NCBI GenBank assembly: GCA_002633005.1
Contig: NMRA01000055.1
Span: forward strand, 924,282-988,281
Length of the DNA stretch: 64,000 nt
Source of the DNA: Phoronis australis
Taxonomy: Eukaryota; Animalia; Phoronida
Reading direction: 5' to 3'
Position numbers and translations under genes: made by a program. The notes beneath the pieces are model-generated. The model was not told where the DNA came from and did not search any database. It saw only the letters and a program-made list of their open reading frames with translations. Shown in pieces: positions 1 to 55,594 of this stretch; position 1 is the first letter of the stretch, and each line of letters begins with the position of its first letter.

Positions 1-3000
1 TCTCAAAAATCTTGGAGAGAGCTGACAGTAAACTCACTGTTGTCATGAAGCACAGCGCCTTGTTTATTATTTGAATACATATTTGTAAGAAGCAGTTCTC
101 GTGGACTAGTTAATGATAGAAAGAACATTAAACTTGCAGGTAATATGAATTTCTGTGTTTTAATTAGCCATACCAGATTGATTTTTGTAATTAAGAGTTT
201 ACATGAACAGGATGATGATTAAAAGACAATTACAACTGCAGGTGATACCAGTATCCGCTGATTTAATCAGTCACACCGTCTTGTATAAATTTCCAGTTGT
301 CATTTGATGTAGATAAGGCATGCGATTAAGACGAGGATTCACAATTAACTTCGAGATTGAACACCAAGGAACCTGCACGTGGTTAACTAAGCATCAGGTA
401 AACCACTTTTTCAAGAAAACTTTTCATTAAGAAATGAAAATTTTACCACTGGCGTAAGAACTCATGGATAGCTTGCAGGCGAGAAAAGGCTTTTGTACTA
501 TTTTAGTATGAACTCGAGATAAATGTCTTTAGCTTTGTGGCTGAGTACATTGCGGTTCACGCAGATGAGCAGTCAGACAAAATTCACACTTTGAAGTAAA
601 CAATTAATATAACTGCTTCGCTGTCCCATCGTGGTGTTTTCTCCAGTTTTCGATTCTGTTTAAGGTTCTCATTCGCTTGAAACAGATATAAACGGCTCAA
701 ATAAAAAATAACAACAAAAAAATCGCGGGCAGCTGAGTGATGGACCGGCAGTACGTTCCACCAGGAAGACGCTGAACTCGCAACAGGACAAAGGTCCAAA
801 ACTGCGAGTAAAGCACCTACTATTTCTTCAACTTACTTAACAATTCTTCAAATATCCGTAGATATTTCTTACATCTATGTTTCAACTTCTGACGTTGTTA
901 CACAGATTCAAAACTACGCAAAAATTCCCCCAAAATATCCCTAACAAGTCCTAAATCAACTACCCGTGTTCTATTCACTTTTCTTGCTCCTGCAAACGTG
1001 ACCTTTTCATTCATAGTGTTACTACATGAAAAGTGGAACGTGCATGTTCATTGGCTTGGAAAAAAATGGAAGCTTAAGTTCTAATTGGCTGTGCCGCAGA
1101 AAGACGTCTTGCTTTGGAAACCAATTGTCGTCGTTTAGTGAAATCTACCTACAATGCATGGTAGACGAAATAAAAACTGCCGCCAGCCACCTCGTTAGCT
1201 TGTGAACTTATTCGACGAGGTCTACCCAGTTTATGGGCCATCGCATCTTGCCTAGCTCAAGTCCTGGCTCCACGCGAGAACGTGCATTTTTCATTCTTGG
1301 TCCTTTTGCTTATACTTTAAAGCCTTCATACCATGGTCACCAATACTTGAACCCAGTTACCAACAATTTTGGTATGATATTTTAAGTATTTATTCTTCAA
1401 TATTTGTACCTGTAATCAAAAAATAAACGCAAGAGTTAAAAACTTTAAAATTTTGTGTGACGTCATTAGTGGAAGTCCGGTCTCCGCCACTGTGTTGTTC
1501 TACACCAGCCGTGAGCTGGAGTGGTCTGAGTGGTATCACGGGCAGTTATTGGTCTTCATCTGAACCGTCCACGGTAGAAATATATACGAACTAAGAGTAA
1601 TTGAGTGTAACTGAACCGAAATACACGCAGTAGCCGGGTTTTCACAGCGTTTTATTTCAGACAATGAACTGTCGATAAGCTCCGAACATCGATTAACAAT
1701 ACTAGTCGGCCATATTTTTGACAAGAAAATTACAAAAAAGATAGTTAAGTGTCAGATAGATCGTGAACATGAAAGACATGGTTTTTTCAGTCTTTCGATT
1801 TACTACAGATAAACGATTATTTCGAGTATGTCAGCCGGACAACGTTGCCACCTGTTCGTTTGGCTTCAGTCGTGTTTGTCTCCGTTCGAGTTTCTCGGCA
1901 TACCTGTTCCGAGATTGTGCTTCTTTTTACAACAGGTCCACCGATTCCAAAAACTTTTGCGTTAATCAGTCACCAATGCCTAGAACTACATTTAAGCGCC
2001 GCAATTTTCGAATCCATTCTTTTTAATTATTTACCGACCACGGCATTCAAGATGCCGTGGGAGAATTGCTTTCACGTCTTTTTTTAAAAGTCCGAGGAAT
2101 AAAGTTGCTAAAAATGAAGCCGCATACAAGCGTTCTTTATACTTGTATTTAGCCTGAATAATGCAAGTGTTTCGAATATACGACGACAATTTATATTTGC
2201 AGAAATGAAAAAGATAGATTTAAGATCACTTTTTCCAATACAATTACTAAGTCAAATTTTTGATGTTCCAAAGATCGTAAACTGTTGGTTATCATTCAAA
2301 ACACTGTTGCAATGGCAACAAAGAAGCATATGAAAATATCGATGATTTAAAGTAGAGGGAGCTTTACAAAGCACAAAATGCATCGTTACTCAACACCATT
2401 TTCGAGTATGAAAATGAAATTTGGGATCGACAATTCAAACCATACCAAAATTCCGGAAGTTGTTGCTTCAGTACTTTAATTAGCTGCTGGCATGCTATTG
2501 GCTGCAAATCTACTCGTGTGGTTAACTGTATCAACAGTAATCTCCCTTCGCGGGACTTGCACTGTCGGCTACACTCACCCGACGATACCGCTGTTCTGGT
2601 CCAGTGCAAGTATACATGGTCCTGCACCAAGTAAATACAGTATGTCTTCAATAACCCTTTATGGCCCTAGTGTGTACATCATTATTTTCGTTACGCTATT
2701 TATGTTGCGCTCTCGAAACTCCAGAGGCTCATCAAAAGGAAAAACTACTGCATTTGTTTTCCATTGTATTTAACACGCCCCATACACTAAGACGTACGTT
2801 GCCTGTCTATGATTCACTGGCAAACACTACTTGAATTGAAAATTACACTAACCTTGCTTTGCCTTTAACGTTCAATTTTTATGAAAATTTTGTATTTTTC
2901 AAGATTTGTAATGCCTTCTTAATTCATTATGCGCCGCATTTAAATTGTCTTAATGACCTTTGTTTTTAACAATTTTACACCAAGTGCGGCCGAGTGAGAA

Positions 3001-3045
3001 TTAAACGGTGTATGATTTTGTAATTTTACTTACCGTATTCATTGG

Positions 3046-3231
3046 TATAATGGTTTTAAATACGAAGTCTGTGTAATCAGTTTACTTCGCAGACACCGAT
3101 TTGGGAAAGTATAATTAATTTACCCTGTGAGAACGGTACGTGGAGAATTACCGGTAATTGTTTCTGGCTCACTGACCCGCTCGCCTTCTCTCACCGCGCA
3201 CGAGTAAATGAAGATTTAATTAATATTTCAG
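3046..3231 (+). promoter_or_regulatory. Putative core promoter, 5'UTR exon and first intron of the peptide precursor gene
   Basis: TATAA at 3046-3050, Inr-like TCAGTT at 3077-3082 about 30 nt downstream, donor ACG|GTACGT at 3136, acceptor TTTCAG at 3231, 11 nt before the ATG. Confidence 0.45.
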
Positions 3232-3242
3232 AAGGAAGGAAG

Positions 3243-3527
3243 ATGAAGTGCTCTCAGGTTCTCTTCACGCTTCTTATACTAACTTCTGTCGTCGTTTTGA
3301 CATCACAAGCCGCAGAAGTTCCCAGTAAACGTGCCTGTCCGCCGCCGTGTCGTTTGTCAGAAACAAAACGATGGATTCACACTACTCCTTCTGGTGGCGA
3401 AGAAGGAAAACGATGGATTCAGACTACTCCTGGCGGCGAAGAAGGAAAACGATGGATTCAGACTACTCCTGGCGGCGAAGAAGGAAAACGATGGATTCGG
3501 ACTACTCCTTCTGGAAGAAAGAAATGA
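3243..3527 (+). CDS. Secreted multi-copy peptide (neuropeptide/prohormone-like) precursor, 94 aa
   Basis: ATG in aagATGa context just after a ttttcag-type acceptor (3231). Hydrophobic signal peptide MKCSQVLFTLLILTSVVVLTSQA. Five KR sites plus terminal RKK. Units ACPPPCRLSET, WIHTTPSGGEEG, WIQTTPGGEEG x2 and WIRTTPSG, with Gly before the basic sites (amidation signal). Confidence 0.88.
   Translation: MKCSQVLFTLLILTSVVVLTSQAAEVPSKRACPPPCRLSETKRWIHTTPSGGEEGKRWIQTTPGGEEGKRWIQTTPGGEEGKRWIRTTPSGRKK
3366..3515 (+). repeat. Coding tandem repeat, 39-42 nt unit, about 4 copies
   Basis: Unit aaacgatggattcagactactcctggcggcgaagaagga. Copies at 3408-3446 and 3447-3485 are identical. Confidence 0.95.
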
Positions 3528-4132
3528 ATCAAAACTGGTCACCAGAGTAACTTTATTTGAAATTTACTCATTCGCAACATNGTCGTTACTATGATGCTTG
3601 ACAACTGACCAAGATGCCACAAAATATGATCTAACTTTTCGAAAACATTTATTTTGCACGGACATATTTTGCTTCGTCGCGGCGTATGGCAACGACCCAA
3701 CGCTTCCGAATCTCAACGTCTTTAGAGATTGTAAAGCAGACAGTTGCATGTCCGTATTTTTTTTAGCCGTTCGCGGAACAACACGGACTGAAACACAGAC
3801 TCCTAAGCCGATAAGCTAACAGAGCTATCGTAGCGAGCCTCGTTTTGGAACGCGCCTCCTGTCGGCGTGAATAGGGTCTATGTCGACGACTCAAATAGAA
3901 AATCTTGCAGAGCGGGTTCGAAACAGGCCTCGGTTTCCCGCCAAAATGTTATCTAACGCCGTGTAATAACTAAATGGGTTATTACACGGTTATATTGGCC
4001 ATTCGAGGCTAATATTGTGGTATAAATATAGATGATTAGATGGCGAAGTCGTTATCCCCCGTATTCTAGAGCCCGAGTGGATTTTGGAGAATTATTGAAA
4101 TCTTGGTTTTTAGCGAAGTCCCAGGGTTACTG

Positions 4133-4566
4133 TGCCCGTTTGCATGAAACAGTCTCAAATAGGGACTCGACTAAGTTCTCTAAATCTACTGCGTATTTTT
4201 GGACATGTAAAACACCAATTGTCCTTTCTTGTATTGTTTTAGTTTCATTGCTAAGTCAAGTTTTCACTTTGATACAACTCGAGAGTGAACTCTACGTTGA
4301 ATTGTCAATATTATCGGAAATAATTAGGGGGTCTTTTCATGCAACACCCCCAATTTAAGGACTGAGTCCCTATTTATTTTCAATGACCTCTGTGCTCAGT
4401 TTTTAGTAATAGTGTTAAAAAATGTCATTAATGAAAGAGGCGCTCATAATAAATATGAAATGATAGACAAATATTGCATCTGTGAGTCCATTAAGACACA
4501 AATACACAGAAAGACTTAGGAACCTTAGTTGAGTCCTTATTTGGGACTGTTTCATGCAACCGGCCA
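4133..4566. mobile_element. MITE, PIF/Harbinger-like
   Basis: About 50-bp imperfect TIRs (tgcccgtttgcatgaaacagtctcaaatagggactc... / ...gagtccttatttgggactgtttcatgcaaccggcca) flanked by a 3-bp TSD CTG (4130-4132, 4567-4569). Confidence 0.8.
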
Positions 4567-7500
4567 CTGAACTCTACCGTTCAGGCCTTTGTAAGTCCCG
4601 TGAAAGAAAAGGGGGCGGGTCGGGTTTGACAGCAGCCGTTTTGTGAACTCAATGGGAAGGGATTACCACGAATGGTATTCAGTTGTTCCTTTGAAGTTGT
4701 TTTTTTTTGAGTAAATTTAATCCAGAAATTTGGCCTCTGCTCTTGTCTACGACGGATACCGATGTGCCGTTATTTTCAGAGCACATCCTTGTTGAGCCCT
4801 TCAAGTTGGTGCGAATCCAGGGTGGAGCTCAGAACACTAGAACATCGCCGAAAGCAAGACTTCGTGATATTAGATGAAATATTGCCGTTTACTTTAAATG
4901 AGATCACGTGATTTTGGCTATATTTTGCGAAGTTCTACCATTAGTGAGAAATTGCCAAAAATCTGGTTGGTAATGACATATTTTAACTTCACGAATTTTC
5001 TGTAATCTAGTTAAAGAACATCCCGATCATGGTCTCCTTTCTTGCACCGGGGCCGTCTTGAATTTGTGATTTTAGGTAAAAATGGCTAAAATCGCACTTT
5101 TTGGTCATCTTAATGTGGCATCTCCTTTTTACCGGTGGACGTAGCAAACAAGACATGACTTTGTTGAATTCCTTCAACTTTGAGAAACCCCATGGAGAGC
5201 AGGCCTACTTTCTGTCAGTTATGCTTTTTTCAGGTGATAGGATTCAAACAAAGGCTTTCTTAACCTAGACCAGCGATAACGCCTAAGTCAGTCACTCGAA
5301 CTGTGGTCTTGGTTCTCATATCAGATGAGGAAGCGGAACCATGTTACGCACGCAAGAGACCTATATCGTCTTTGCCGGTTACACGCAAGACTTCGCGAGA
5401 TATCGCCATGTATTACAAGCGAAGCACATGTTCCTTGCTTACCGAGATTCATGCGTCTACGAAACTACCCTGTACTGAACCCAAAGCACCCGTTACTGGA
5501 AATGTTAATTTTAAAATTATTTAAAAATAATTAGCCTAGATATCCTGTTAAATATGTACCGAAAACCCACATATCTTATTGATTACGATGCAACTCAATT
5601 ACCTGTTTGTTTATGCAGTGTGTTCCTAGAATTTTATTTTTTTGTGTTAATTTTTGTAAGACTGTCTTTGTCAACGCTGAAGAGGGATGTAGTATCCTGG
5701 AGTGATTCATGTCACATAATTAACCATATACTAAATGATGACGTAGTATATTCTTGGAATATCCTGCTATTTGGGCATGTGTTCTAGGAATATTCTTCTT
5801 TAATGGTAACATCTTTAGCCTACTTGTATTGACACGTCATACGTGACAACCATTATGAAAGTCACGTGTAAAAATTTCATTGATAAAAAGCTGTTCTTTG
5901 GTTTAAAAGCAATACCGGCACTTTTGAAACAATCTGTGCTGGACGATTTAAACGAATTTAGGTGCCACGAATCTTCATGTACAGAAACAACCTTGCCGAC
6001 TAATCGCTGTGTTGCTAGGGTAGGCTCTCGAGGATTCTCTCACATTTTTACGAATTCTGGCGAAGCTAGGTCAAGGAAGCGCTCTGCGCGGGTAGAGCTC
6101 GCAAGAACTTCGCCGAGGTACATGTAGCTAGCTAGGGCAATAACGTTATGTACATGGGGACATCTCACAGTCTTGCGTTCTCGCCTCCACAGAACGCACG
6201 CCTCGCGTGTTCAACCCGTAACTTGAGGGCTGCGTACGAGTCAGTGCGACTCCAAAAACCACCGCAACGAAAAAATAAGACACTTAGTGCTTCTCAAGTC
6301 CAGAGGCGGAGTTCAAATCCCCCTCGGGACAAGATCAAAAATAAAAAAATTCAATGAAAACAAAATCAGCTACTTAAACCAAAAAATCTTCCCTCCGCTC
6401 CGGCGGCGCTACGCACCTCCAATTCGAGCGTATCCTAAACCCCGCCCCCTTAATGAAAACCTAGATCTGCCACTTTAGTCAGCATACACTTCTTTACCAA
6501 AATTTATATGCAGTTGCCACATTTTGCTTTTTTCACCACTTCTTTAGCAATATCCACATTTAAGGAGGTCCACTTATTGGATCACGTCTTCAAAAATGAC
6601 ACGTAGAAAAGGTCTCGTTTTTGGGGTCCCAGGTATGCTGCCTTAAGAACTTTTCCAAAATCCCTTGTAACACGGGTACTCACGTACATATTGAACGCCC
6701 AAAAGAGTGTAGTACCCTGTTGTCAGAGCAACCGCACAGAGGTATCTTACGGTAGTGGTGGGAGCAATATCGTAGTATACTGTAACAACTGAAATTCCAT
6801 TTTTAATTACTTAATTCATTCTCTAAAATGAAAGAAAACAACACAATCGAACATTATTACTTTTATTTTGCGTGAAGATTTCACGATGAAAAAGATGAAT
6901 GAAAACTGTACAAGAAAACACAATGAACATTGAACATGGCAGAAAACTGATCGTAATAAAAATAACCCTTTATTTACATTTAGAACCAACAGAGGCCGCA
7001 CTCGTTCGTATAATGTTATAGCTACTTTGATGAGTGGCAGATTTCAATACAAACATCACATTTGTTCATAAAATTTCACTAGTCCTCATTAGAAGACTTC
7101 CCATAAAATACAGAATGGATAAATAATTTAAGTAACTACCACTTTTTCACATCTCATCGTACTTAAGACAACATACACTCCACATATTCAGTATATCCTT
7201 TAAAGCTACTTCAAGTTTACTGATAGAGAATATTATTTCGCCTTAACCTCAAAGTACAGGTATGTTTAAAAGTGCAATAATTAAAAACTGTCTGGTAAAA
7301 TTATTAGCGGTGAAAAAAAAAGGATATCAGCTAGGGAAAACTCAAAAAGATCTCCCCACGACAGAATTGCACTAAAACACAAGTTCTAGGATAGGGCCAA
7401 AAATAGCATTGACCTTTTACAACCCAAATCTGAATTCTGCACGAATACGTCTGAACTCACCGATTTTAGAGCAACATCAGACCAATAAGCAGTAAAGGAA

Positions 7501-11200: not shown

Positions 11201-14200
11201 CAGTGGACCTCTACATCCAACCGTGCAGTGAAATGACAAGTGTTGTTTTCAGTCATGTTTAGATGTCACCAAATTATCGCTGATGTCACATGATATTCAT
11301 GTTTTGGGATGCAACCCTTTGTTAAGTTTTCTTGTTTTAATACAGCGAGTAGGCCTTCACAATTACACATACAAGTTTCATTGCCGCCAACATATACTAA
11401 CTACACATATTAACAAAACCAAGGATTGAAAGGAGTTCATTGGTTGTAGCTAAGGAAAAATTCACCACCACTAATTAGATTGTCTACAGTTTTGAACTTC
11501 GACTTGATCAATTACACAGGGCAAAATACAAGAAATGTAGGACCTCACCGCCATGTCTGTATCTATCTAAATATCCACAAAGCTGTAGAAAAAACTATGT
11601 GAAGCATACATTTTTAGACACCAGAAAGTATGCAGACTTGGATAATCAACTTTGTATCAATCTGTCATAACTTGGGTCAAATGACAATTTAGCAAAAAAG
11701 GTACATTCATACCAAAAAAGGTACATTCATACCAAAAAAGGTACATTCATACCAAAAAAGTTACATTCATACCAAAAAAAGAAACAGTATCAGTATCAGT
11801 CAGATACCATTCATATAAATGTCTAAGATGAAAGCTCAAAGATATTGTTGCAGTTTCGGATTTTGTTTCATGCAACTTATGACTTTTAATCATGAAAATC
11901 ATAAAAGTCTTATTTTGACAGCATCTCATGCAAAAGAGGAATATTTCAAAAACAACGCTTTGGAAAACATAGCATAAAGCATAGTATGCCAGAAATTCAC
12001 GTGCATCTGACCAGCCATCTCTGAGATACGACGTTCTGAAGTTGTCCAAACTTTATAATTTTTCTGGCGTCCACGTAACTTAAGAATATGACTCACGTCG
12101 AAGTAACACTGAAGGAGTTCTACACGCGCCTTTGTGTCCAGAGTTTCCGGGGGCGAGCCACTCCGTAGACACTCGAGCGCCTCCTTTGGGTGGAACTTGG
12201 GCTCGGTCTTCCGGCTCAGAGGTTTCTCCCACACTTTGGCGGCCTCTGTTGGTGAGTACTGATGAAGCTTGCTGTAAAGGTTAAGAAAGCTCGTATTTCA
12301 TAAAGGGACTGCAGAACGGTGATTAGAATGTGCAAGGCAGCACTATGGAGAAGGGAATAATGCATGTCATCAATTCATTCAGTAGGTGTCAGTAAACATG
12401 GGCGGGGTTTACTGTAAAAGTCAAGAGAGTTTGTTCCATCATGGGGACTGTCAGAGGAAACGTTGATTACCATCCTTGAAGGGACGGTTATCCCAGACAT
12501 TTATTCCGCTTAATGCAGCTTTTCGTAATTTTGATTAATTATTCATTCTCTATTCCAGAAGTGACGTTTTGGGAGGCAAGAACTTTGCTTTTGTTTACGA
12601 GTCAGTCAACATGCCACACAAATGCTGCGGGATGTATTCTGTGTACTTAGAAAAAAATCTACAAAACTGTAGATTTAACTCGATAAAACTATATTTTCTG
12701 TAGAATTTGATCTGTGACATTATAGCAATAAACCATGTCTTTTTAGTAAAATTAAGCAAAAATGAAAGGTATACTCTAATCAAAGCAAAACAACTTCAAT
12801 CACAGACCAAAATTCATTTGATATTAACAGAATAATCTCAAAAAACATTACCAGTTCTCAAAATTTTCATTTGTTTTCATTTGAGGCCGCATTTGACTTT
12901 TTCACAAAAATTATTTTTGATAGTCCCTCATGCAAATCACACTCAGTGAATAAATGTAAGCCCATCAGCAACAGGGGGCGCTGGCTGTGCGCAGCCTTTG
13001 CTTTTCAGAAGTATGGGTACTGTAATATCAAAAACTAATTAGAACTCCTAGCAAATGGCTATGTTGTGAGAAGCCAAAAGCATAGGTCAAAGGTCAATAG
13101 TCCACCCACCTGTCAGTAAAGCCAAACATCTCCTTGAGATGTTGCTTGACCTTCAGCAGCAGGACACAACCTTGAGATGTCAGCATGATCCGCTGAAGGA
13201 CACTAGTGTCATCAGGCAGGCAGTCTGGATTGAAATAACACAACAACATGAATACGTAACACAAAATCAGATCTGTTAGGTTCAGAAAATACACGGTTCT
13301 CTCACACCAAGGCGATTCTCAATAGGAAGTTAAAAACAGAACTGCGAAGGAACCGACTAAGCACTGTGCAGTCCCAGTAAAAATCTCGCAGTCAGAGTCG
13401 CTTTTGAGGCATGTTTTTGGCCAAAGTTTGCTCATTTCTGCCTATCCCAAGCCCATTTCTGAGAAAGGGTTTAGTTGATTGCTACACTTCCGAAATTCCA
13501 TTGCTCATCAACAACTCCAATACACACCACAAGTATTCAGACAAAATTACCCAGAATTCCCCGTCATGATGGCTAGGTGGAAGCCCAATTACTCGTCAGA
13601 GTAGTCTTCCCACAAGACCGAGAATGACAGGGAATTAACAAGAAAGTTAGCAAGGTGCATAAGGCATTCTATGATCAGAATTTTGCGCCTAGGTGGTAAT
13701 TGCCAGCCGCTTTTTTGCTGTTGACAGAATTAGGCATCATGACAGGGAAATAATAAAAAAAAATAATTGCAGGCGGTCTGATACATGTTGTACCAGACGT
13801 GCACAGGCCTCGCATGTGGGCCCATTGCACTGATCACCTGGAAATATTTTTATGCTTTATCAATATATGGTTAAAACTGAGCTGAGGAGCTAGAAACCTG
13901 GCTCAAGGGTTTAGCAGTGTGACATGGTGGAACTCGAGCCCACAACCTCGAGTAAAGAAAGCGGGCACTTATCAACCAGGCCACACTGCCTCCTTGACAG
14001 GGAAATGGTCTGATTGCTTTTGTCTTGTAGTGTATCACCCAACCCAAGCCTCAAGTATGTACATAACAACTTCTTACCCCTAAACCCTAAACCCGATCCA
14101 CCAACCCTGTGGTACTAAATCAATACCAGGGTCCCTTAACTCCGCACACCTGCACAAAATGCTCCACGCCCGGTGACCAGATTCCATTAAGAGCCAAAGT

Positions 14201-20200: not shown

Positions 20201-23200
20201 AAGCCGTCATTTTTAAAAACTGGCCATACCAGTGACCCTTGCTAGATGAGTTCCCGGTACACATACATAGATTTTTGATATCCTTAAAAAGGTCAATCCA
20301 TGGAGAGTATTTCAAAATAATGAACAAACCTTTGTCTCTCCCATTTCTTTGGCATCAAAGTCAAAGTGTTTGCACAGCAGTCCGACTGTGAACAATGCCC
20401 TGAGTAAAGTTGGTTTGCTGGCGTGTAGCGCTGGGTTCTTGAAGTCAGTCTTGTGTTCTGACATGATCTTGCACACGGCGCCTGAGAATGAGGGAAGACA
20501 GAGTGAACAAAGGTCTTTAAATAAACTGCAAGTTTTAAGTTTTGTTAAAACGAGCTGGATTTGGCCAGAGACATTTTAAGAGAGTGAAAAGTTGTGCCAA
20601 TGACCCCTGCCTGAACTTAAAAAGCTGCTATCAACCAAGTTCTGGTGTAAAAAAAGGTCAACTTTCTTCACAGATGTATTTACCCGTCTAAAGGCACATT
20701 CTGATCCTTTATTTGAACTGAAATGGGTTACAAAAAATTGCCCAGAACTTGATGAATGTACTGTTTTGATGACTAAAACTGACTTTAAGTGCTAAGCAAC
20801 TTTAGGGTCTGCTATCAAACAGTAACATCGGACAGTTCGTCTCGAGCTCAGAATTTATTTCTAATCTGAGCAACGAACAAGCAGAGACTGATTGGTTCAG
20901 CAGCTCAAATCAACAGTTGGTTTCAGACAGGAGTGGGTTTATTGACCTTTTAAGTTTTATTGAAATCATTACATTACAATGTTAACTATTAAAATAGGGA
21001 CCAAGATTTTGATGAGACATCTACAACTGTAACAGTACAAGCCAAAGTATTCGGACAAAATGACCCAGAGTTTCCTGTCATGACGTCTGGGTGGAAGTCG
21101 AATTTCATCATCAGAGTTGTCTCCCCTGATGATCGAGAATGAAGGGGAATTAACAGGAAATGTAGTAAGGTGGCCGAGTCATTCTGTCATTAGAATTTTG
21201 TCGCCATAATTTTTATTACCAGTACTTCTGCTGCAATCAGAATTAGCCACGACAGTATTTTGTCTGGATACTGTTGTCTTGTACTGTCAGTTTGTAAACA
21301 GAACTAATATTTATGACCAGAAGACACAAAGCTGAGGAAATTAACTTCCAGTGAAACGAATGTGAAGACAACACTAGGACTTTGCTTTGTACTTGACATA
21401 CCGAAGAACTTTTGAAAGCAATCCCTGACTAGCTTGTAGTTATGTGACACTTGGTTCACCGAAGCCCCTAGACAGCTAACACAGGCTTGCAGAACCTGAA
21501 AGTCAGAATTCAGGAGAGTTTACCGTCAGGATTCACAGTTAACAGAGTGTGCTTACATAAACAGATCAATACCTTCAACATTAATGGCCAGAGTACAAAA
21601 CTCTTCATGCAAATAGTGCTGACTGAACAACAACAGGAATTTACACCAGAAAGGTAAAAGTGAACTTGACACGCACACAACATCTGTCCCAAGAAACTTG
21701 GTCGGAACTGTAGGAAAATCGGATGCATACCAACCTCTGCAGGGGTAGATCCAGGATTTTGAGTTGGGGGAGGGGCAGAGTATTAGCCAAGATTTTGCCC
21801 ATAAAACACTTGCACCCCCGAACTGCCAAATGGAATTTGGGAAAGTTTTTTTTTGGGGGGGGGGCAAAACCTTCTTGCCGCCCCTTAAATCCGCCACTGC
21901 TATGCACATAAGCCCAGTATGATTACAACATTATGTTTAAATTTTCAAATACCTGCTGCTTCAAGTATAAGGGCTTCAATCCCAATAAAAAAATACGAAA
22001 CAGAATGTGAGAAAGGGCAACAGTCTGACATAACATGCTCGTAGTTTGAGAACCAGTTTTCTCTGCTGAACAACGGGCATCAAACTGGTTCTCGTAACGT
22101 GGGCCCATTACGGTATATCCAACTATTGCCTGATTTTTCGTCAGAATTCCTGGGTTTCAACAGAAATTGTCAACTTTTTTAGAACTACTGAATTATAGTC
22201 ACGCACCATCTGGCCATGACGTAAGATGAGCTTCATCATGTCCGTCTCCAGCTGAAGCAGGAAGGACTCTCCTGGGTTGGCCATTAGAGGTACGACTAGC
22301 TCCAATATGGAGGCCACATGGTGCAGTACTATGTTGTCATTCTGCGTCTGAAATTGAAAGTTTAGTAGAATGGGTACAAACTGAATGGGAACATAGTAAA
22401 CAGTACACCACTTATCACATATATGTTGAGAGACTGGCAATATAAACAGCAATACAAAAGTAATTAGAGAAAATGCCGTTTACCATCGAGATGGCCAATT
22501 CTGTTACCAGCAAAAATTACAGGTAATAGGTGTAATAATTACAGATAATAGGTGTAATAATTACAGGTAATAGGTGTAATAATTACAGGTAATAGGTGTA
22601 ACAATTACAGGTAATAGGTGCAATAATTACAGGTAATAAGTGTAATAATTAGATAATAGGTGTAACAATTACAGGTAATAGGTGTAATAATTACAGGTAA
22701 TAAGTGTTAATATAATTACAGATAATAATTTTTATGACAGCAAAATTGTAATTACAGAATAGTTTAGCCACTTTACTAACTTTCCTCTTAATTCCCCTTC
22801 ACTCTCGGTCATCAGGGGAGACTACTCTGGCGACGAATTCAGCTTCTGCCCAGAATGCTTTTCGCTTACACTGTATCTAGTGACTGGGTAAAAACTTTTG
22901 ACCACCACCTAAATTTGCTTACCTTATAAGCAATATTCAAATACGGTTGAAGGGTTTGCGCATGAGGTACGAGTAATTCAGGCTTGATTTTAGTGAACAG
23001 ATAAAGCGTTGATAGGCAAGCGACGAGACGAGCACTGCTAGTACCGCCGCTGCCACTGGTGGCGCTCTTCTCCTCTAGCCGCAGAACATTCTCGACCAAA
23101 CAGTCAACAATTTGGCGGCAAGCCTTGGCCACAGCCTGAGCTTGACTCTCTGATTCTTTTTTAAAAAGCTGTAACAGAGTTGAACAAATGGCTTAAGGAA

Positions 23201-35200: not shown

Positions 35201-38200
35201 AACGATTAAGTGAGCTAGCTTAATACCATGTAGACCTGATCAAAAAACATTCGACATAACGTCCATAATTTGCATTGAGGTAATCAGCTCCTGAAGCTCA
35301 GAATAATGACAATTATTTCTGTGTGAAATAAAACACCATACCATTGCTCGCATTTTCACTAAAGGTGAAGAAATTTTGGTACTCCAAAAACGTCATTTTG
35401 AGACAGGTTCTTTTGCTTACACCAACTCACGTGTGTTCTCTTACTCATTCAATCACAACCCTGACTACAACTGACAATATATTGCTAGTAATGACAAACC
35501 TAGATCTATATTAGTTAAGTCAACTTCTTCAGCCTGGTCCAGAATGGTATCTATGTAGCTGTTGAAGCGCTTGAATGTCGCCGTTTCCATCAGCTCATCA
35601 GTCGACAAGTTTGTATCGATAACGGGTCTTCGTATTTTTTCCTTCTTTTTCTTCTTTGGCACTGTAAACAGTGAAACGAGGCGTAAGGTACGACCAGTCA
35701 CACATATAATGTATATGTGCCCATTTAGGCCCGCGTAGAGTTGTATTTGAAGCTACGCCTATATTCGAAGTAAGGCCTGTATGCAAAAATTTTAGTAAAA
35801 CCAAGGTCTGGGCTTGATTTGGTGACCTGAAGGACACCAATGCGGTTTCAGGTTTTGTTTGATGACCTGGTAAAATCCCAGGTCGCCATGTCACATTCGA
35901 GGATGCAATCAAAATACTACAGAAAGTTGGAAAGATTCCGCAATAACTGAAAGGATTTGACTGTGTTCGTTTGCTCCGGGACGTGGGTTTAAGCTCGAGA
36001 TATTGGTCCGAAAAGAGAGAAATTGGTTGTCAATGAGGACGCAGGACGCTCCTAATTTTCCATTCGAGCAAAAAAGTTCCCATATGGCAACCTGGGAATT
36101 TGACTAGATCGTACTAGGAAAGTTGTGGTTAAGATAGGCATACAGCTCTGAATGTGCAAGATAAAGATGTTTAACTGTTTTCACTTCAAAAAGGAAAATG
36201 ACTGAAAACTCATAAAGGACAGCCATTTAAGACATGATCACCTGAGTGTACAAGAGACACTCACCTACATGTGAAGCCTTGGCACATGTGCCCTGTACGA
36301 GACACATAAACAAAAATTATCTTCCAAAAAAACACATTACGCATGTCAAGCATATATGTACGGGTCTAAATACGCGCTTATGACAATGGCCACATCAAGA
36401 CACACCGTTAGAGGGCGACTCCGGTCTGTACTCTGTCAGAGTTTCCGTCATCGTAAACTCTCTGGTAGGGGGCGCTTCATCCTCATCATCGTCCTCATTG
36501 TAGTTGACTTGCCGGCTCCGCCTCCTCTTGACGCGCTCTGTCAGCGACGCCGCAAACTCGCCGTAAGCGTTAAATTCTGCACTGGGATCCCACTCGCTGT
36601 CTTCACGATGTCTTTTTGTACCTGAGAGAAATTTTGAGAAACAGTCAGTGTAAAATCACGTAAATGAGCAAGTGAATTTATAATTGACAGAAAAAAATAA
36701 TGAGTAAGAAACAAAACCAGCGGCATATCAACAACAATGTGTTTTTGAAACTTCATATCAACAAAACTTGGTGTGATCATTGATTTTTTTGTGAATTTGG
36801 TCTTCCTACTGCTGGTTCAAAAATTAATATCTTAAAGGCAAGCGATGCAGGAAATGCATACATAATTCGAAAAATTCGATACACTGTATCCTTATACTCA
36901 CACAAATGTTTCGGGAGTATCAAGCTACATTTGTCAGTGTGGTGTCCCTGATTTGGTTAGCCATTTTTTTACAGCTGTAGACATGGTGGTTATTGAGGCA
37001 TATTTTGTGTACAAAAATTAAGTACCCAAAAGTTTTCAGTTTGCGCCGACAACGTGGGAAATCAGTGAAGCTTGGTGTTATATCAGAGAATGGAGTCATG
37101 TTTAATGACAAGTGACAACTTGAAACATTATATCAAAATTTTCAAAATATCAGAGAAGTCTCAATTGTCGGAGCTTTTTTTGGTGATTTTTGAATGTGTA
37201 AGTCACATCAATTTTGCCATTGTCACATATACGAGACATAGTACTTTCAGTGATAACAATGAATTTAATTCTACAATTACAGAAAAAAAGGAACCCAACA
37301 CAAATTACTTGGCTCAACATTTTGTCACGTAATTCTCAAAATGAATTTCAGGCAAGTAGGTTTTGTCACAGAATGTCACCATGTTACAGGGAGTCACAGA
37401 ATATCACCATGTCTCAGGGAGTCACAGAATGTCACCATGTCACAGGGCGTCACAGAATGTCACCATGTCACAGGGAGTCACAGAATGTCACCATGTCACA
37501 GGGAATCCATTCTCTGTTGTATAATTGACGCAGATGTAAAGACAAACTGGTTTTCACAGCCTGCAGAATCTTGGAATGACATTTGTTTTTGGACAACACT
37601 GATTATCATTTTTGAAAAATTCAATGCGAGTGTTTTTGATGGCGATAGACTTCAGCTTGAGTAGTGCACCATCTTGTTCACTAAGGTACCTACTACACTT
37701 CCTCTTATTGTTGACATCATGGACTAGAATAATGAATATTTATCTCCATACGATATCAATAATATAAGGCAGCAAACTGCCGCGTAAAGGCATCAAAGCA
37801 GAATAATACTCACCTCTTTTAGACGAGTCGTACCCACTTGCTTTAGTTGATGTTCTACCTTTCAAATCCAGTTTTGTTACTGCAAAGAAAAGATAACAAG
37901 TTTAATAGCAAGCTCAGACAGTACAACACACCCTAGAACATACTTCTGGTTAAGGTATCATAACATTACAAGTTTAATAGCAAGATCAGACAGTACAACA
38001 CACCCTAGAACATACTTCTGGTTAAGGTATCATAACATTACAAGTTTAATAGCAAGATCAGACAGTACAACACACCCTAGAACATACTTCTGGTTAAAGT
38101 ATCATAATCATACAATTCTTAACACATAATTGAATTGACCATGAAATAAATTTGGCTTCCTGAACAACGTTCAAGACCTTGTATCGTTAGCAGTACAAAT

Positions 38201-41200
38201 TGGCTTCACAAATGTAATTCCGACTATTTTGAGAACATTTGTGTACACCAGCGAAGGCAGGTACTGGTTTGTGATAGAAACTTGTCCAGAAACATGAGTC
38301 TTCCGAGTGAGGTGAATGTTTGATGAATTCAAGCAAGTAACAAAGGCTTGAATATATTCACTTCCAAACCCAGACTTTAGAAAGTATTAATAGCCCCACA
38401 TCAGTTTTATAGGAAAATATCCATGACGCTACTTCACGATGTGAATCCCTCATGACAAGAGGTATGGATGACTGTACAAAATCAATCATCAATTCTCCAC
38501 CAGTGTCATTAACATTAAAAGGACATTATTGGCAAGAAAAATTGTTTTCTAAGATCAGCCCTAGCATGGATTAGAACACAAAACCTTCACTGTCCCAGTC
38601 AAAGATTTTGCTAGCGGACCTAAATCCAACTCGATAAATGGTGGAGTATTTTAAGCGCACGTAACTGGTTGAGTGACCAGCCACGATTTCAGTGAACGTT
38701 AGGCAGACAATGTCAAGAACGGGTGACTTGCAATACAATCTCAAAAACATTATGGATTTTACTGCTATGTAGCTTTAGCAAAAGCTAATAACTTCAGCAA
38801 GTCTATCCCAACCAACAATACCCAAAATGCCTTTTTCGGATGCAAATCCGATTGTTTTGCCTGAATCCACGTCCGTGTTTGTGTAAACAATATACTCACA
38901 CTTCAACTGCGGTGTCATCAACTGGATTCCCTGAAATCAAAAAACAAGCTGTGTAAACACAAAAAAGCAAGGAATAAAAAAATACACCATTCACAGTAGG
39001 AGCTAAAAGTATTTAAATAAAATGACCCGGAAATCCCCGTGATGATGGCTGTGTGGAAGCTGAGCTCGGTAATACTTAGTCTTCCCACAAGACCGAGTAT
39101 GTACAGGACAGTAAATAAGGTGGCTGACCCTTTCCATAATAAAAATTTTGCCGCCCGAACAGTCATTGCTACTAATTTTTGCTGTCAATAGACTTTGCTG
39201 TCACGACAGGAAAACGGTATTTTGTCCGATTACTTTTGTCTAAACATGGAAATTGTGGACAAGATGTCTTGTACTGCATTTGTCTCATGTATGACAAAGA
39301 CATTGTCGATTGGTCTTTGAAAACTACTGTAGCAGTGAATTCGGTGTAACCAGCGCACCAACACGTAGAGATTTCACGGCAAAAGACTACGAAGGCATAT
39401 CTTAGAAAATGATATAAACTAGACCTTGGCTCGTTACACACCTCAAAGGTATTGGACTGATCGTGGTCTGCTGGGGTGGCTGGGAGACTCTGTGGCAAGA
39501 CCTGGAATAAAAACACGACACGTCTTAAATATCTGCAATAAAAACTGACCTATTGAGAAGCTCGTTATGCAATGACTTAAGGTTATGTAGGACCTTATCG
39601 AGAAGCCTGTATTTGGCCAAATATCAACAAAGTATAGATTTTTAAAACTTAGTAAAAGAATGTTTTCTAAAAGTTGAAATCTTGTAAAGCAATGATTTGT
39701 AATCTCCCTGTACTATTGGGTCACGTGACTGTATCTTTTCTGGTAAAATTTAACAAAAAAGAAAGATGCATTCATTGCAAAACAATAGTGACAATAACAC
39801 TATTAAGTTTCATTTGATACAAATGTTCAAGATGCAATCTCAAAAGCGCTCTTACAGTTGCGTAAATCATCATTTCATTTTTTGCAACTGCTATGACGAT
39901 GAACTCAGCTTCTACCCTGCCGTCATGCTGGGGGATTCTGGGTAATCTTGTCGGAATACTTTTGGCGTGTATAGCACTACTTACACTTTCATCTAAGGGT
40001 TCAATCATCACGACAGGCTTCTTCGTTTTGCTCTTTTTCTTTCTCGTGTCTCCTGTGCTAGACCTGGCTTCCACACCATGACTGGAAAAATAATAACAAA
40101 CATTTACTTTATCGACACTTCACAGCCCAGAAAACAAGACTTGAAACGTTATTTGGAGTTTACAAGTCACTTTTGAAAAATGACTTATTCACAATGTCTC
40201 AGTAAGTTAAACAGAAAGAAGAGTTAGCCACAAGGAATATGGGAAACAGTGCTCAGCTCAGATTACATTTAAATTTAATCAAAATTTTCAAACGTGGAAA
40301 TATGCACCATAGCGCATCAAGTTTTGGTAAATTAAAAAAAATTCTCCCTTAAGGACTTATCAAGATGATAATGCATGACCTCTTCCACACCATCAGTAGG
40401 TCACACATGTACTAGTGAAAAATCAATGCATAATCCCCGTTCATATTGTAATCTTATTATACTTGAGCTTACTGCAAGTTTTCCAAGAAGCGAGTTTTAT
40501 TTACCACAAATTTCCAACAAAACAATTTCGACAACCCGTCGCTACCAATTTTCGCCACTTTTCATGAGAGAGAACAATGCATATAGAAANACTGCAAGTT
40601 TTCCAAGAAGCGAGTTTTATTTACCACAAATTTCCAACAAAACAATTTTGACAACCCGTCGCTACCAATTTTCGCCACTTTTCATGAGAGAGAACAATGC
40701 ATATAGAAATCCACAACAAGCGCTCTTTTCACAATCCCGCACCCGCCGATGAGAACACACAAATACGAAAAACAAAACAAAATACCAGTACCTAGTATCT
40801 GTCGTGGCCGGTGGCATTTCGAGATGAAACGATGGCTCAATCTCGTCGAGGGAGCTCACGTGACTATCCCCGTCCTGCCGATGGTCGACAAGCTGTAGCG
40901 GGTCCTCAGAAAGGGGAGCGGCATTCGCTTGAGCAGGTGAAGAAACTGAAGGACAATGGCAAGATTATTACTTTGTGTCCAAATATCATTCCCCGTAATG
41001 AGTGACCACGCTCCAGTCAGTGCTCCACTTCGGCAAAATCAAGCACATTTCCTAACATTTCACAGGGCACAGACAGAAATCAGTTCGTAAGGTGGAAAAT
41101 ACGGTACGCACATGACAGATATGGACAGAGAGAAATTTAAATACTTTTCAAATGACACATCTACCGAGACCACCAAACACTACTCGAGACTCCAAATGTC

Positions 41201-52990: not shown

Positions 52991-53612
52991 CACAGGCGTC
53001 CTCAGCTTCTAATCGCGTCCCCAATATACTACATATAATACTACAAGGTTATGACACTCGGGACTAGAAATTCCACAGGTGCTTCGATTCAGCTGTCCAT
53101 GTCAAAGACATAACTCAATAAATTTACACAAAAAAGGGGTTCAACAAACCATGAGAAATTGATTTTTCTTATAATACCATTCACGGTGTCCTGCTCCAGT
53201 GAGTTCGCAAGAAATTCGCAGTCAAAGCACAAAAATGTTCCCAAAATGCCAAACACACTTTGCACTTTGACGGTTCGAGGTCAAGGACGGCACGGAAATT
53301 GCCAGTTTGTCGCTTAAAGTCACGATGTCGATAACGCCGTAATTCATAGGTAATTTCTGTACCGTCCTTAATCTCAAACCGTGCTTTGACAGCAAATTTC
53401 TTGCGAACTCTTTGAAGCAGGACACCGTGAATGGTATTATAAGAAAGAACAATTTCTCATGGTTTGTTGAACCCGTTTTGAACTTTATTGAGTTTTGTGT
53501 TTGATATGGACGGCTGAATCGAAGCACCTATGGAATTTCTAGTCCCGAGTGTCATACCTTGTAGTATTATATGTAGTGTATTGGGGACGATCAGAAGCTA
53601 AGAACGCCTGTG
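52991..53612. mobile_element. Foldback-type element with about 225-bp TIRs and 8-bp TSD
   Basis: 52991-53217 is the reverse complement of about 53395-53612. TSD gtcacggt / gtcatggt. Confidence 0.85.
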
Positions 53613-54367: not shown

Positions 54368-54803
54368 GTATTCTCAAATGCAACTTTTTTGCGGGAAAAT
54401 TGTTTAAAATCTTTAATAATTAACAGATAATGACGCAACTTACTGTCCATAGTGTGCATGTTGTCCTTGTCTAAGGTAGCTGTGTCTGTGAGTGAGACCT
54501 TGACCTGGGCTGGGGCCCTGTCATTTTGTCAGTGTCACTGAGCGAGTCAATGCTGATTACGTAACCAGGGAGGGTAATGATCTGATGAAGGTCTCGGGTT
54601 TCTGGACTGGTGATTTTCTGACAACTCCTTGTCATTAGGTGACATAGAATAGTTGATGGTCTGCTCGAACTTCATTCTTTTTTTCTAGTACAAGAATTTT
54701 ACACTATTAATTACAGTTACACAACTTCACAAGTGCGTGATGTATAATTCAGTACTCACAGTAGCGCCAGGGTGCTGTGGCACATGATGGACCCTGCCCA
54801 GCT

Positions 54804-55594
54804 AAAAATTGGGTAATTGTTTACAATATGACGACATTGACTTACACATATGATTTTGGTATCGTTTGATTCCTTGCAAAGTTATCTTTCCAAAAATACT
54901 TAGAAATTCGTCTTACCCCATTCTTTTAATACTTTATCGGGAAACTTCTGCTCGCACTATTTCCCGGTACGCGGTAGTAATACCGCCACGTTGAATGCAA
55001 GGAGTCACCTGGTGGTCAAAAACTTAACTAATCTACCGACTTCTATAGATTGTAGCTTTTCATAAGGTCAAATTGACCGAGACTCGTTTTTCTCCCGCCC
55101 GAGTTACGGTGCCAAGGGTTCGAATTCGATCCTATAGTGACCCTGGTACGCATCTGTTAGCACGAAACCGCGAAAAAAGCGGAAGCTGTTTTTGAGGTTC
55201 TTATTTGTGAAAATGGTATCCACTTCAGACAATTTCGTGGAAAAATGGTCAAATGGTCACAATTATAAAAAAATTGGAACAGGTGAAATGCTGCTACTAA
55301 TTGTTCCTCCATATCATGTCGGAAAAACTTTAGCTGGAATCTCGCACAGGCAAACACCATTCAAAATCAATGATGCTGTTTCATTCATTAACAACAGGTG
55401 TCGCTGTAATCTTGAGTTGAGCTAACATGGCGGTGTCAACCGGGAAATAGTGCGAACCGAAATTCGACAATAAAATACGGAGGTAGGGGATAAATTCATA
55501 TATTTTTGGAAAGATAACGTTTCAAGGAATTGAACGATACCAAAATCATGTGTGTAGGTCAATGTCGTCATATTGTAAACAATTACCAAAAATT
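54804..55594. mobile_element. Long-TIR DNA element remnant in SCP2 intron 1
   Basis: About 115-bp inverted arms: ggtaattgtttacaatatgacgacattgac...gttatctttccaaaaata and tatttttggaaagataac...gtcaatgtcgtcatattgtaaacaattacc. Confidence 0.75.

What the first reader, a model, noticed from the sequence alone, without database searches (positions are those of the whole stretch)
3243..3527. Orphan secreted precursor encoding a family of WIxTTP peptides: candidate new signalling or bioactive peptide system
Seen in the sequence: a 23-aa signal peptide, a short pro-piece (AEVPS), then KR-delimited units WIHTTPSGGEE-G, WIQTTPGGEE-G (x2) and WIRTTPS-G-RKK. Established knowledge: signal peptide plus dibasic sites plus C-terminal Gly is the prohormone convertase / carboxypeptidase E / PAM route. 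It predicts WIHTTPSGGEE-NH2, WIQTTPGGEE-NH2 and WIRTTPS-NH2. The conserved part is the N-terminal WI-x-TTP motif, not the amidated C-terminus as in most neuropeptide families, and Glu-amide ends are unusual. I recognise no known family (RFamide, Wamide/MIP, orcokinin/pedal peptide, SALMFamide and so on). Inference: a lineage-specific neuropeptide, pheromone/gamete-signalling peptide or defensive animal RiPP-like product. At 94 aa with one coding exon, it could easily be missed by annotation.
Basis: partly seen in the sequence, partly recalled or inferred. Interest (0 to 1): 0.88.

Follow-up and report, generated by a model that had tools for sequence, protein, structure and literature searches.

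The report
Expressed orphan WIxTTP peptide precursor
This is a real, spliced and expressed gene of an invertebrate animal whose 94-residue product is predicted to be secreted and cut into four look-alike WIxTTP peptides and one two-cysteine peptide, likely signalling molecules, with no match to any peptide family we could check.

Summary
Window 3243-3527 (+) encodes 94 residues: a signal-like N-terminus, five KR sites and four Gly-ended WIxTTP units. The gene is transcribed. RNA reads join a non-coding exon (about 320-397) to the coding exon (from 3232) across a GT-AG intron: 6, 21 and 24 reads in three runs, plus a contig in a fourth, all raw reads from one strand. That contig's variants keep the frame. 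No homologue or family match turned up in Pfam, three protein searches, PDB, five neuropeptide supplements or four paper searches. The neighbouring NIPBL gene points to a bilaterian, probably a lophotrochozoan outside the sampled molluscs. Best reading: a lineage-restricted proneuropeptide-type precursor processed by convertase, carboxypeptidase and PAM. Processing, tissue and receptor are untested. The claim that the N-terminal motif is the conserved message is not shown: the copies are nearly identical even at silent sites, so they are recent duplicates. Lineage-specific precursors are routine in such animals and a Glu-amide has precedent. It is a new member of a known kind, of moderate interest.

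The parts
284..290 (+). TATA-like box (TATAAAT), about 30-50 nt upstream of the observed 5' ends
   Evidence: Read from the sequence; function inferred from position
320..397 (+). Exon 1, 5' untranslated; start approximate
   Evidence: X1 contig maps from 322, a pile-up of molecule ends at 332 in X3, stranded depth in three raw-read runs; 30-nt match at 364-393
398..3231 (+). GT-AG intron, 2,834 nt
   Evidence: Joint 393/3228 'cut +4', 6/21/24 reads from 3/12/16 start places in X2/X3/X4 and one contig in X1; donor and acceptor letters printed
3232..3580 (+). Exon 2, holds the whole ORF; 3' end not determined (at least 3580)
   Evidence: Stranded depth through 3580 in X2-X4; repeat-derived reads of both strands obscure the region beyond about 3600
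3243..3311 (+). Predicted signal peptide, residues 1-23
   Evidence: Hydropathy and (-3,-1) rule; helix 3-23 in the model; SignalP not run
3312..3332 (+). Pro-piece AEVPS and first KR
   Evidence: Translation
3333..3365 (+).
   Evidence: Translation; X1 contig carries an in-frame 3-nt insertion here
3366..3407 (+). KR + WIHTTPSGGEE-G
   Evidence: X1 contig has two replacement changes here (3380, 3390)
3408..3446 (+). KR + WIQTTPGGEE-G, copy 1
   Evidence: (family D4, 39-nt spacing)
3447..3485 (+). KR + WIQTTPGGEE-G, copy 2, identical to copy 1 in DNA
3486..3527 (+). KR + WIRTTPS-G-RKK-stop; its end likely a frameshifted form of the GEEGKR codons
   Evidence: the frameshift origin is read by eye from the codon view (11 of 12 letters agree after a 5-nt gap, in purine-rich sequence)

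Best explanation
This is a transcribed two-exon animal gene whose product is likely a secreted, lineage-restricted proneuropeptide that convertases would cut at its five KR sites and terminal RKK into four WIxTTP peptides, predicted to be amidated, and one two-cysteine peptide, which likely signal through a cell-surface receptor. Shown: the ORF, its layout, splicing, one-strand expression and a frame-keeping variant. Inferred from established prohormone biochemistry: signal removal after Ala23, cleavage by PC1/3 or PC2-type enzymes, trimming by carboxypeptidase E, and PAM conversion of terminal Gly, giving WIHTTPSGGEE-NH2, WIQTTPGGEE-NH2 (two copies), WIRTTPS-NH2 and ACPPPCRLSET. Inferred with least support: release from neurons or neuroendocrine cells and action on a GPCR. 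The four units arose by recent tandem duplication of a 39-42 nt unit.
For: Layout: signal-like N-terminus, 5 KR, 4 Gly-before-basic ends. Spliced GT-AG transcript in 4 of 4 runs laid, from 2 studies; on both exons every raw-read bin has first mates on the minus strand only. Crude level of 6, 17 and 19 RPKM-like units in X2-X4. Both length differences seen inside the unit array or upstream keep the frame: the 3-nt Ser codon between copies and the 3-nt insertion in the X1 contig; the listed X1 changes leave the KR, W-I and Gly codons intact. Two KR sites lie outside or at the edge of the repeat, so they are not only a by-product of it. Short lineage-specific precursors of this build are reported in related animals: nemertean PSLamide, phoronid LKFL, Platynereis-specific precursors.
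Against: No peptide was detected; no tissue or cell type is known; no orthologue in another species was found, so conservation of cleavage sites across species is untested. Differences between copies and in X1 are mostly replacements (His/Gln/Arg, Ser/Thr, indels), which fits a fast-evolving gland product or relaxed selection as well as a neuropeptide. PAM works poorly on acidic residue-Gly ends (recalled; one search found no usable paper), so three units may stay Gly-extended. X1 shows no coverage past 3464.
Confidence: 0.58

Rival explanations
1. The same processing, but the peptides are exocrine: a pheromone, gamete cue, mucus or defensive secretion released from gland cells to act on other individuals or species.
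For: No relative in 5.8 billion clustered proteins or 1.84 billion representatives. Copies are recent and differ mostly by replacements. The X1 contig differs at 2 replacement sites, 1 silent site and 1 inserted codon among the rows shown. A Cys-pair peptide is co-encoded. The closest architectural hit is a fungal Kex2-type repeat precursor (P0003), a class that includes pheromone precursors (search listing).
Against: The peptides are neutral or acidic apart from the last (+1), unlike typical membrane-active defence peptides (recalled). Moderate level in X2-X4, not the very high level usual for gland products, though the tissue is unknown. Only one copy in the window.
Confidence: 0.27
2. A young or decaying gene: a coding minisatellite inside a transcribed locus gives a small secreted disordered protein that is not cut, or has no selected function.
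For: Units are nearly identical at silent sites, so their likeness needs no selection. The last unit looks frameshift-derived. No orthologue found. An upstream ATG at 320 opens a short frame whose stop overlaps the main ATG (read by eye), which could lower translation.
Against: A TATA-like box, a spliced non-coding first exon, an A at -3 of the ATG, a signal-like N-terminus, KR sites outside the repeat, Gly before four of the basic sites and frame-keeping indels together are hard to get from drift.
Confidence: 0.08
3. A strongly diverged member of a described family, most plausibly the nemertean PSLamides (aromatic-x-x-Thr-x-Pro-Ser-Leu-amide).
For: WIRTTPS-G lines up with WSLTSPSL-G at Trp1, Thr4, Pro6 and Ser7. 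The host may be a lophotrochozoan.
Against: None of the four units has the defining Pro-Ser-Leu-Gly end, three carry an acidic tail, and the precursor is 94 aa against several hundred with many copies for the PSLamide precursors shown. The resemblance is four residues and was not tested statistically.
Confidence: 0.07

Closest known systems
Repetitive amidated proneuropeptides of bilaterians (FMRFamide-, MIP-, FxRIamide-type build)
   Same: Signal peptide, KR-delimited tandem copies, Gly amide donors, terminal basic cluster
   Different: No shared peptide motif; acidic residues lie inside the predicted peptide C-terminus rather than in separate spacers; very short; carries a Cys-pair unit
Nemertean PSLamide (PMC8557429, supplement part 25 read)
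   Same: Aromatic first residue directly after KR, Thr at 4, Pro at 6, Ser at 7 in two units, no spacers between copies
   Different: No Pro-Ser-Leu-amide end; GGEE tail in three units; far fewer copies
Nemertean AGEamide (PMC8557429, section 6 and supplement passages)
   Same: Predicted Glu-amide end from Glu-Gly-dibasic; found by mass spectrometry, so the end is feasible
   Different: Single copy in a 254-aa precursor; no sequence likeness otherwise
Platynereis WI proneuropeptide (PMC3890597, passages)
   Same: Trp-containing peptides with 'WI' in the name
   Different: Those are non-amidated MIP relatives with two Trp and W-I/L at the C-terminus; here W-I is N-terminal and there is one Trp
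Fungal Kex2-processed repeat proteins (P0003 from Neocucurbitaria cava; class seen in search listing only)
   Same: Signal peptide plus KR-delimited Thr-Pro-Gly-Gly repeats; best architecture-matched hit, E 7e-9
   Different: Fungal; the likeness comes from low-complexity repeats; no Trp-Ile start; an analogue, not a homologue

Membership tests
Proneuropeptide / prohormone-type precursor (broad kind) | N-terminal signal peptide | tested here: met
   Crude hydropathy and (-3,-1) rule, helix 3-23; SignalP not available
Proneuropeptide / prohormone-type precursor (broad kind) | Dibasic convertase sites flanking repeated short peptides | tested here: met
   5 KR plus terminal RKK; 4 similar units
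Proneuropeptide / prohormone-type precursor (broad kind) | Gly amide donor before the basic site | tested here: met
   4 of 5 units end in Gly; the Cys unit does not
Proneuropeptide / prohormone-type precursor (broad kind) | Transcribed as a spliced mRNA with intact frame | tested here: met
   4 of 4 runs
Proneuropeptide / prohormone-type precursor (broad kind) | Cleavage sites and motif conserved across species | tested here: inconclusive
   No orthologue found; no animal genome collection could be searched by tblastn, and unannotated short genes are missing from protein sets
Proneuropeptide / prohormone-type precursor (broad kind) | Mature peptides detected; expression in neurons or neuroendocrine cells; receptor | not testable with these tools
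   Needs peptidomics, in situ or single-cell data and receptor assays
PSLamide | C-terminal Pro-Ser-Leu-amide | tested here: not met
   0 of 4 units
Wamide / MIP / Platynereis WI peptides | Two Trp residues 6-7 apart with C-terminal W-amide or W-I/L | tested here: not met
   One Trp per unit, at position 1
Hexacorallian neuropeptide families (PMC7523074) | Cnidarian host and one of the listed motifs | tested here: not met
   NIPBL groups away from Acropora; WIQ and WIH occur 0 times in that paper's main text (tables and supplements not seen)
Animal RiPP-like product | Tailoring enzymes beyond the general secretory set, linked or co-expressed | tested here: inconclusive
   None recognised in the window; animal pathways need not be clustered

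The most novel reading that the evidence does not exclude
The founding member of an unrecognised peptide system that packs two message types in one tiny precursor: a disulfide Cys-Pro-Pro-Pro-Cys peptide and Trp-Ile-x-Thr-Thr-Pro peptides read from the N-terminus, with acidic Glu-amide tails and possibly O-glycosylated Thr. It is released outside the body as a fast-evolving pheromone or defence signal, with its own orphan receptor.
Probability: 0.15. Interest if true: 0.7.

Novelty: new member of a known kind. Interest (0 to 1): 0.42.

Why it matters
It adds a verified, expressed and apparently undescribed peptide precursor, with exact masses to look for, from a lineage whose peptide inventory is thin. 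Orphan ligands like this are the missing partners in GPCR deorphanisation screens. It also shows a precursor in the act of being built by tandem duplication, with copies diverging at one position. It would matter more if the peptides proved to be external signals or if the Glu-amide and Cys-Pro3-Cys products were confirmed. As it stands, lineage-specific precursors are a common outcome of invertebrate neuropeptide surveys, so a specialist would be interested but not surprised.

Tried and rejected
Homologue searches: Pfam 0 families at E 10; 0 of 212 candidates near length and 0 of 778 longer candidates, with shorter lengths not searched; 12 hits among 1.84 billion representatives, of which I read 9, all repeat or fibronectin-type-II noise, with P0002, P0005 and P0013 not read; the exact sequence is absent from the 15-billion collection; 4 metagenome loci at 37-43% over about 40 residues, not followed up; PDB best E 0.12; Rfam 0 in the window. 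The ESM Atlas gave no result, which is no evidence. No whole genome is held, so paralogues elsewhere are untested; in the window the motif occurs only in this ORF. The run search listed no indexed RNA holder on record; the evidence comes from laying the runs. My first guess of a stony coral was rejected: NIPBL pieces are about 54-55% identical to Acropora and 57-62% to molluscs. The idea that the Cys unit is a decayed WIxTTP copy was not supported with the window's own letters (shuffle p 0.06-0.32). Papers: 0 hits for WIQTTP, WIHTTP or WIRTTP, TTPSamide and six further motifs; one search gave 22 papers, the 10 listed being unrelated WIQT strings. A PAM-specificity search gave nothing useful. 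The bacterial promoter scan does not apply. Earlier scan findings: none.

Full report
Observation. Window 3243-3527 (+) is an ATG-to-TGA frame of 94 residues. It has a hydrophobic stretch at residues 6-19 and a Ser-Gln-Ala cleavage-type site after residue 23 (my own crude rule; SignalP was not available). A single-sequence AlphaFold model shows one helix, 3-23, and no fold after it (mean pLDDT 57.9). After the pro-piece AEVPS come five KR-bounded units: ACPPPCRLSET, WIHTTPSGGEEG, WIQTTPGGEEG twice, and WIRTTPSG followed by RKK and the stop. In the window, 1 of 73 ATG-ORFs of 60 aa or more combines a signal-like start with three or more KR sites, and 0 of 3,646 simulated ORFs did. That simulation makes no tandem repeats, so it is a weak control against a repeat origin.

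It is a real gene. Four runs were laid. Reads cover 3232-3580 and about 320-397; between them reads fall mainly on one repeat near 1300-1530, with only traces elsewhere. A joint skipping 2,834 nt with GT..AG ends is seen in 6, 21 and 24 reads of X2, X3 and X4 (3, 12 and 16 start places) and in one contig of X1. The intron is 398-3231. On both exons the first mates lie only on the minus strand, while repeats nearby draw both strands, which fits a plus-strand mRNA in a stranded library. A TATAAAT box lies at 284-290. The level is modest, about 6, 17 and 19 RPKM-like units by a crude sum. The four runs come from two studies, and tissue is not given. The X1 contig differs from the window by five letters and a 3-nt insertion; the three letter changes shown are one silent (3302) and two replacements (3380 His to Gln, 3390 Ser to Thr), and the insertion adds a codon inside the Cys unit. 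X2-X4 read the window's letter at those places. X1 has no coverage beyond 3464. The 3' end is unknown.

Host. No genome is held. The large minus-strand gene from about 8,100 to 45,800 is NIPBL (Pfam Nipped-B_C; tblastn; C-terminus read). Its matched pieces are 57-62% identical to mollusc proteins, 49-57% to arthropod and 54-55% to Acropora. Two trees put it beside, but outside, the sampled bivalves, limpet and cuttlefish (support 99, 94). An AU test rejected molluscs plus arthropods without it at p 0.019 (14 rows, chosen from the 46 homologues, one long outgroup). No named annelid, brachiopod, nemertean, chiton or deuterostome was in the set, so a slow-evolving deuterostome is not excluded. 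The safe statement is a bilaterian, probably a lophotrochozoan, and not a coral.

Relatives. None found: Pfam, near-length and longer protein searches, exact look-up, 1.84 billion representatives (12 weak hits, 9 read, all repeat noise), metagenome contigs (4 weak loci) and PDB. These sets hold called proteins, and a short unannotated gene of a congener would be absent, so this does not show that the gene is unique to one species. Full-text searches gave 0 papers for the peptide strings; one search gave only unrelated strings in the 10 of 22 papers listed. Supplement searches showed no such precursor in PMC8557429 (TTPGG occurs once, in a GPCR), PMC3890597 (files 2 and 4-7 not searched), PMC6425005 (files 2 and 3 cut when stored; TTPGG and TTPSG 0 times in the two reference-precursor files), PMC7737342 (only 24,247 characters held) and PMC6188537. 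Only the first passages of each term were shown. Subscription papers, figures and bioRxiv supplements were not visible and could hold a description.

Mechanism. By established prohormone biochemistry the chain would enter the ER, lose residues 1-23, be cut after each KR and at RKK by PC1/3 or PC2-type convertases, be trimmed by carboxypeptidase E, and have terminal Gly turned to amide by PAM. The products would be WIHTTPSGGEE-NH2, two WIQTTPGGEE-NH2, WIRTTPS-NH2 and a non-amidated two-cysteine peptide. None of these steps is shown. PAM is slow on acidic-Gly ends (recalled), but a nemertean AGEamide was found by mass spectrometry (PMC8557429, section 6 and supplement passage), so the end is feasible. 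I put neuronal or neuroendocrine signalling through a GPCR at 0.58, an exocrine pheromone or defence role at 0.27, an uncut or unselected product at 0.08 and a diverged known family at 0.07.

A caution on the motif. The codon view shows the four copies share AAA CGA TGG ATT and ACT ACT CCT letter for letter, silent positions included, and copies 2 and 3 are identical. Their likeness reflects recent duplication and is not evidence of selection. Three of four share the GGEEG end just as well. The last unit's Gly-Arg-Lys-Lys end matches the GEEGK codons in 11 of 12 letters after a 5-nt gap (by eye, purine-rich sequence), so it likely arose by a frameshift of a full unit. Which end a receptor reads is open. 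What does vary is mostly replacement change (His/Gln/Arg at position 3, Ser present or absent or Thr), on very small numbers. A test of whether the Cys unit is an old copy of the same repeat was not significant.

Comparison. The build is that of ordinary repetitive proneuropeptides. The nearest look-alike is nemertean PSLamide (supplement part read), which shares an aromatic first residue, Thr4, Pro6 and Ser7, but its defining Pro-Ser-Leu-amide end is absent from all four units. Platynereis WI peptides are two-Trp MIP relatives (passages) and do not fit. The best database hit by architecture is a fungal KR-repeat protein, an analogue only. PMC8557429 and PMC3890597 both report several lineage-specific precursors (passages), so an orphan of this kind is an expected find.

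Verdict. A confirmed, expressed and apparently undescribed peptide precursor of a known kind. Function, tissue and receptor are untested, and no orthologue is in hand. Interest 0.42.

Noticed in passing
window about 8100-45800, minus strand: NIPBL (cohesin loader) gene with many exons, convergent with the peptide gene; CpG observed/expected falls to about 0.5-0.7 over it against 1.14 at 1-4000, as expected for gene-body methylation of a housekeeping gene beside an unmethylated one.
   Followed up: partly
window 320-397 joined to 3232-3246: An upstream ATG at 320 opens a 30-codon frame across the splice whose TGA overlaps the main ATG; it lies at the very 5' end and may not be in most transcripts (sequence, read by eye).
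   Followed up: no
window 54383-54430, plus strand: A short first-exon-like piece ending VFVVGVGMTK resembles the start of sterol carrier protein x / thiolase (recalled); Pfam gave no hit on the 70-aa frame.
   Followed up: partly
window 53016-53589, 54809-55590 and 4132-4567: Elements with long inverted arms (84-97% complementary), likely MITE-type transposons; the one at 4132-4567 draws many divergent reads from both strands.
   Followed up: no
window 40471-40709: Two 119-nt copies at 99% identity flanking a single N at 40590, probably an assembly join artefact.
   Followed up: no
window 22490-22729, 37337-37535, 37890-38115, 11690-11789: Intronic minisatellites with 22, 28, 72 and 20 nt units.
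   Followed up: no
window 3600-5450: The region just downstream of the ORF is a patchwork of dispersed repeats that attract divergent reads from both strands and hide the 3' end of the transcript.
   Followed up: partly
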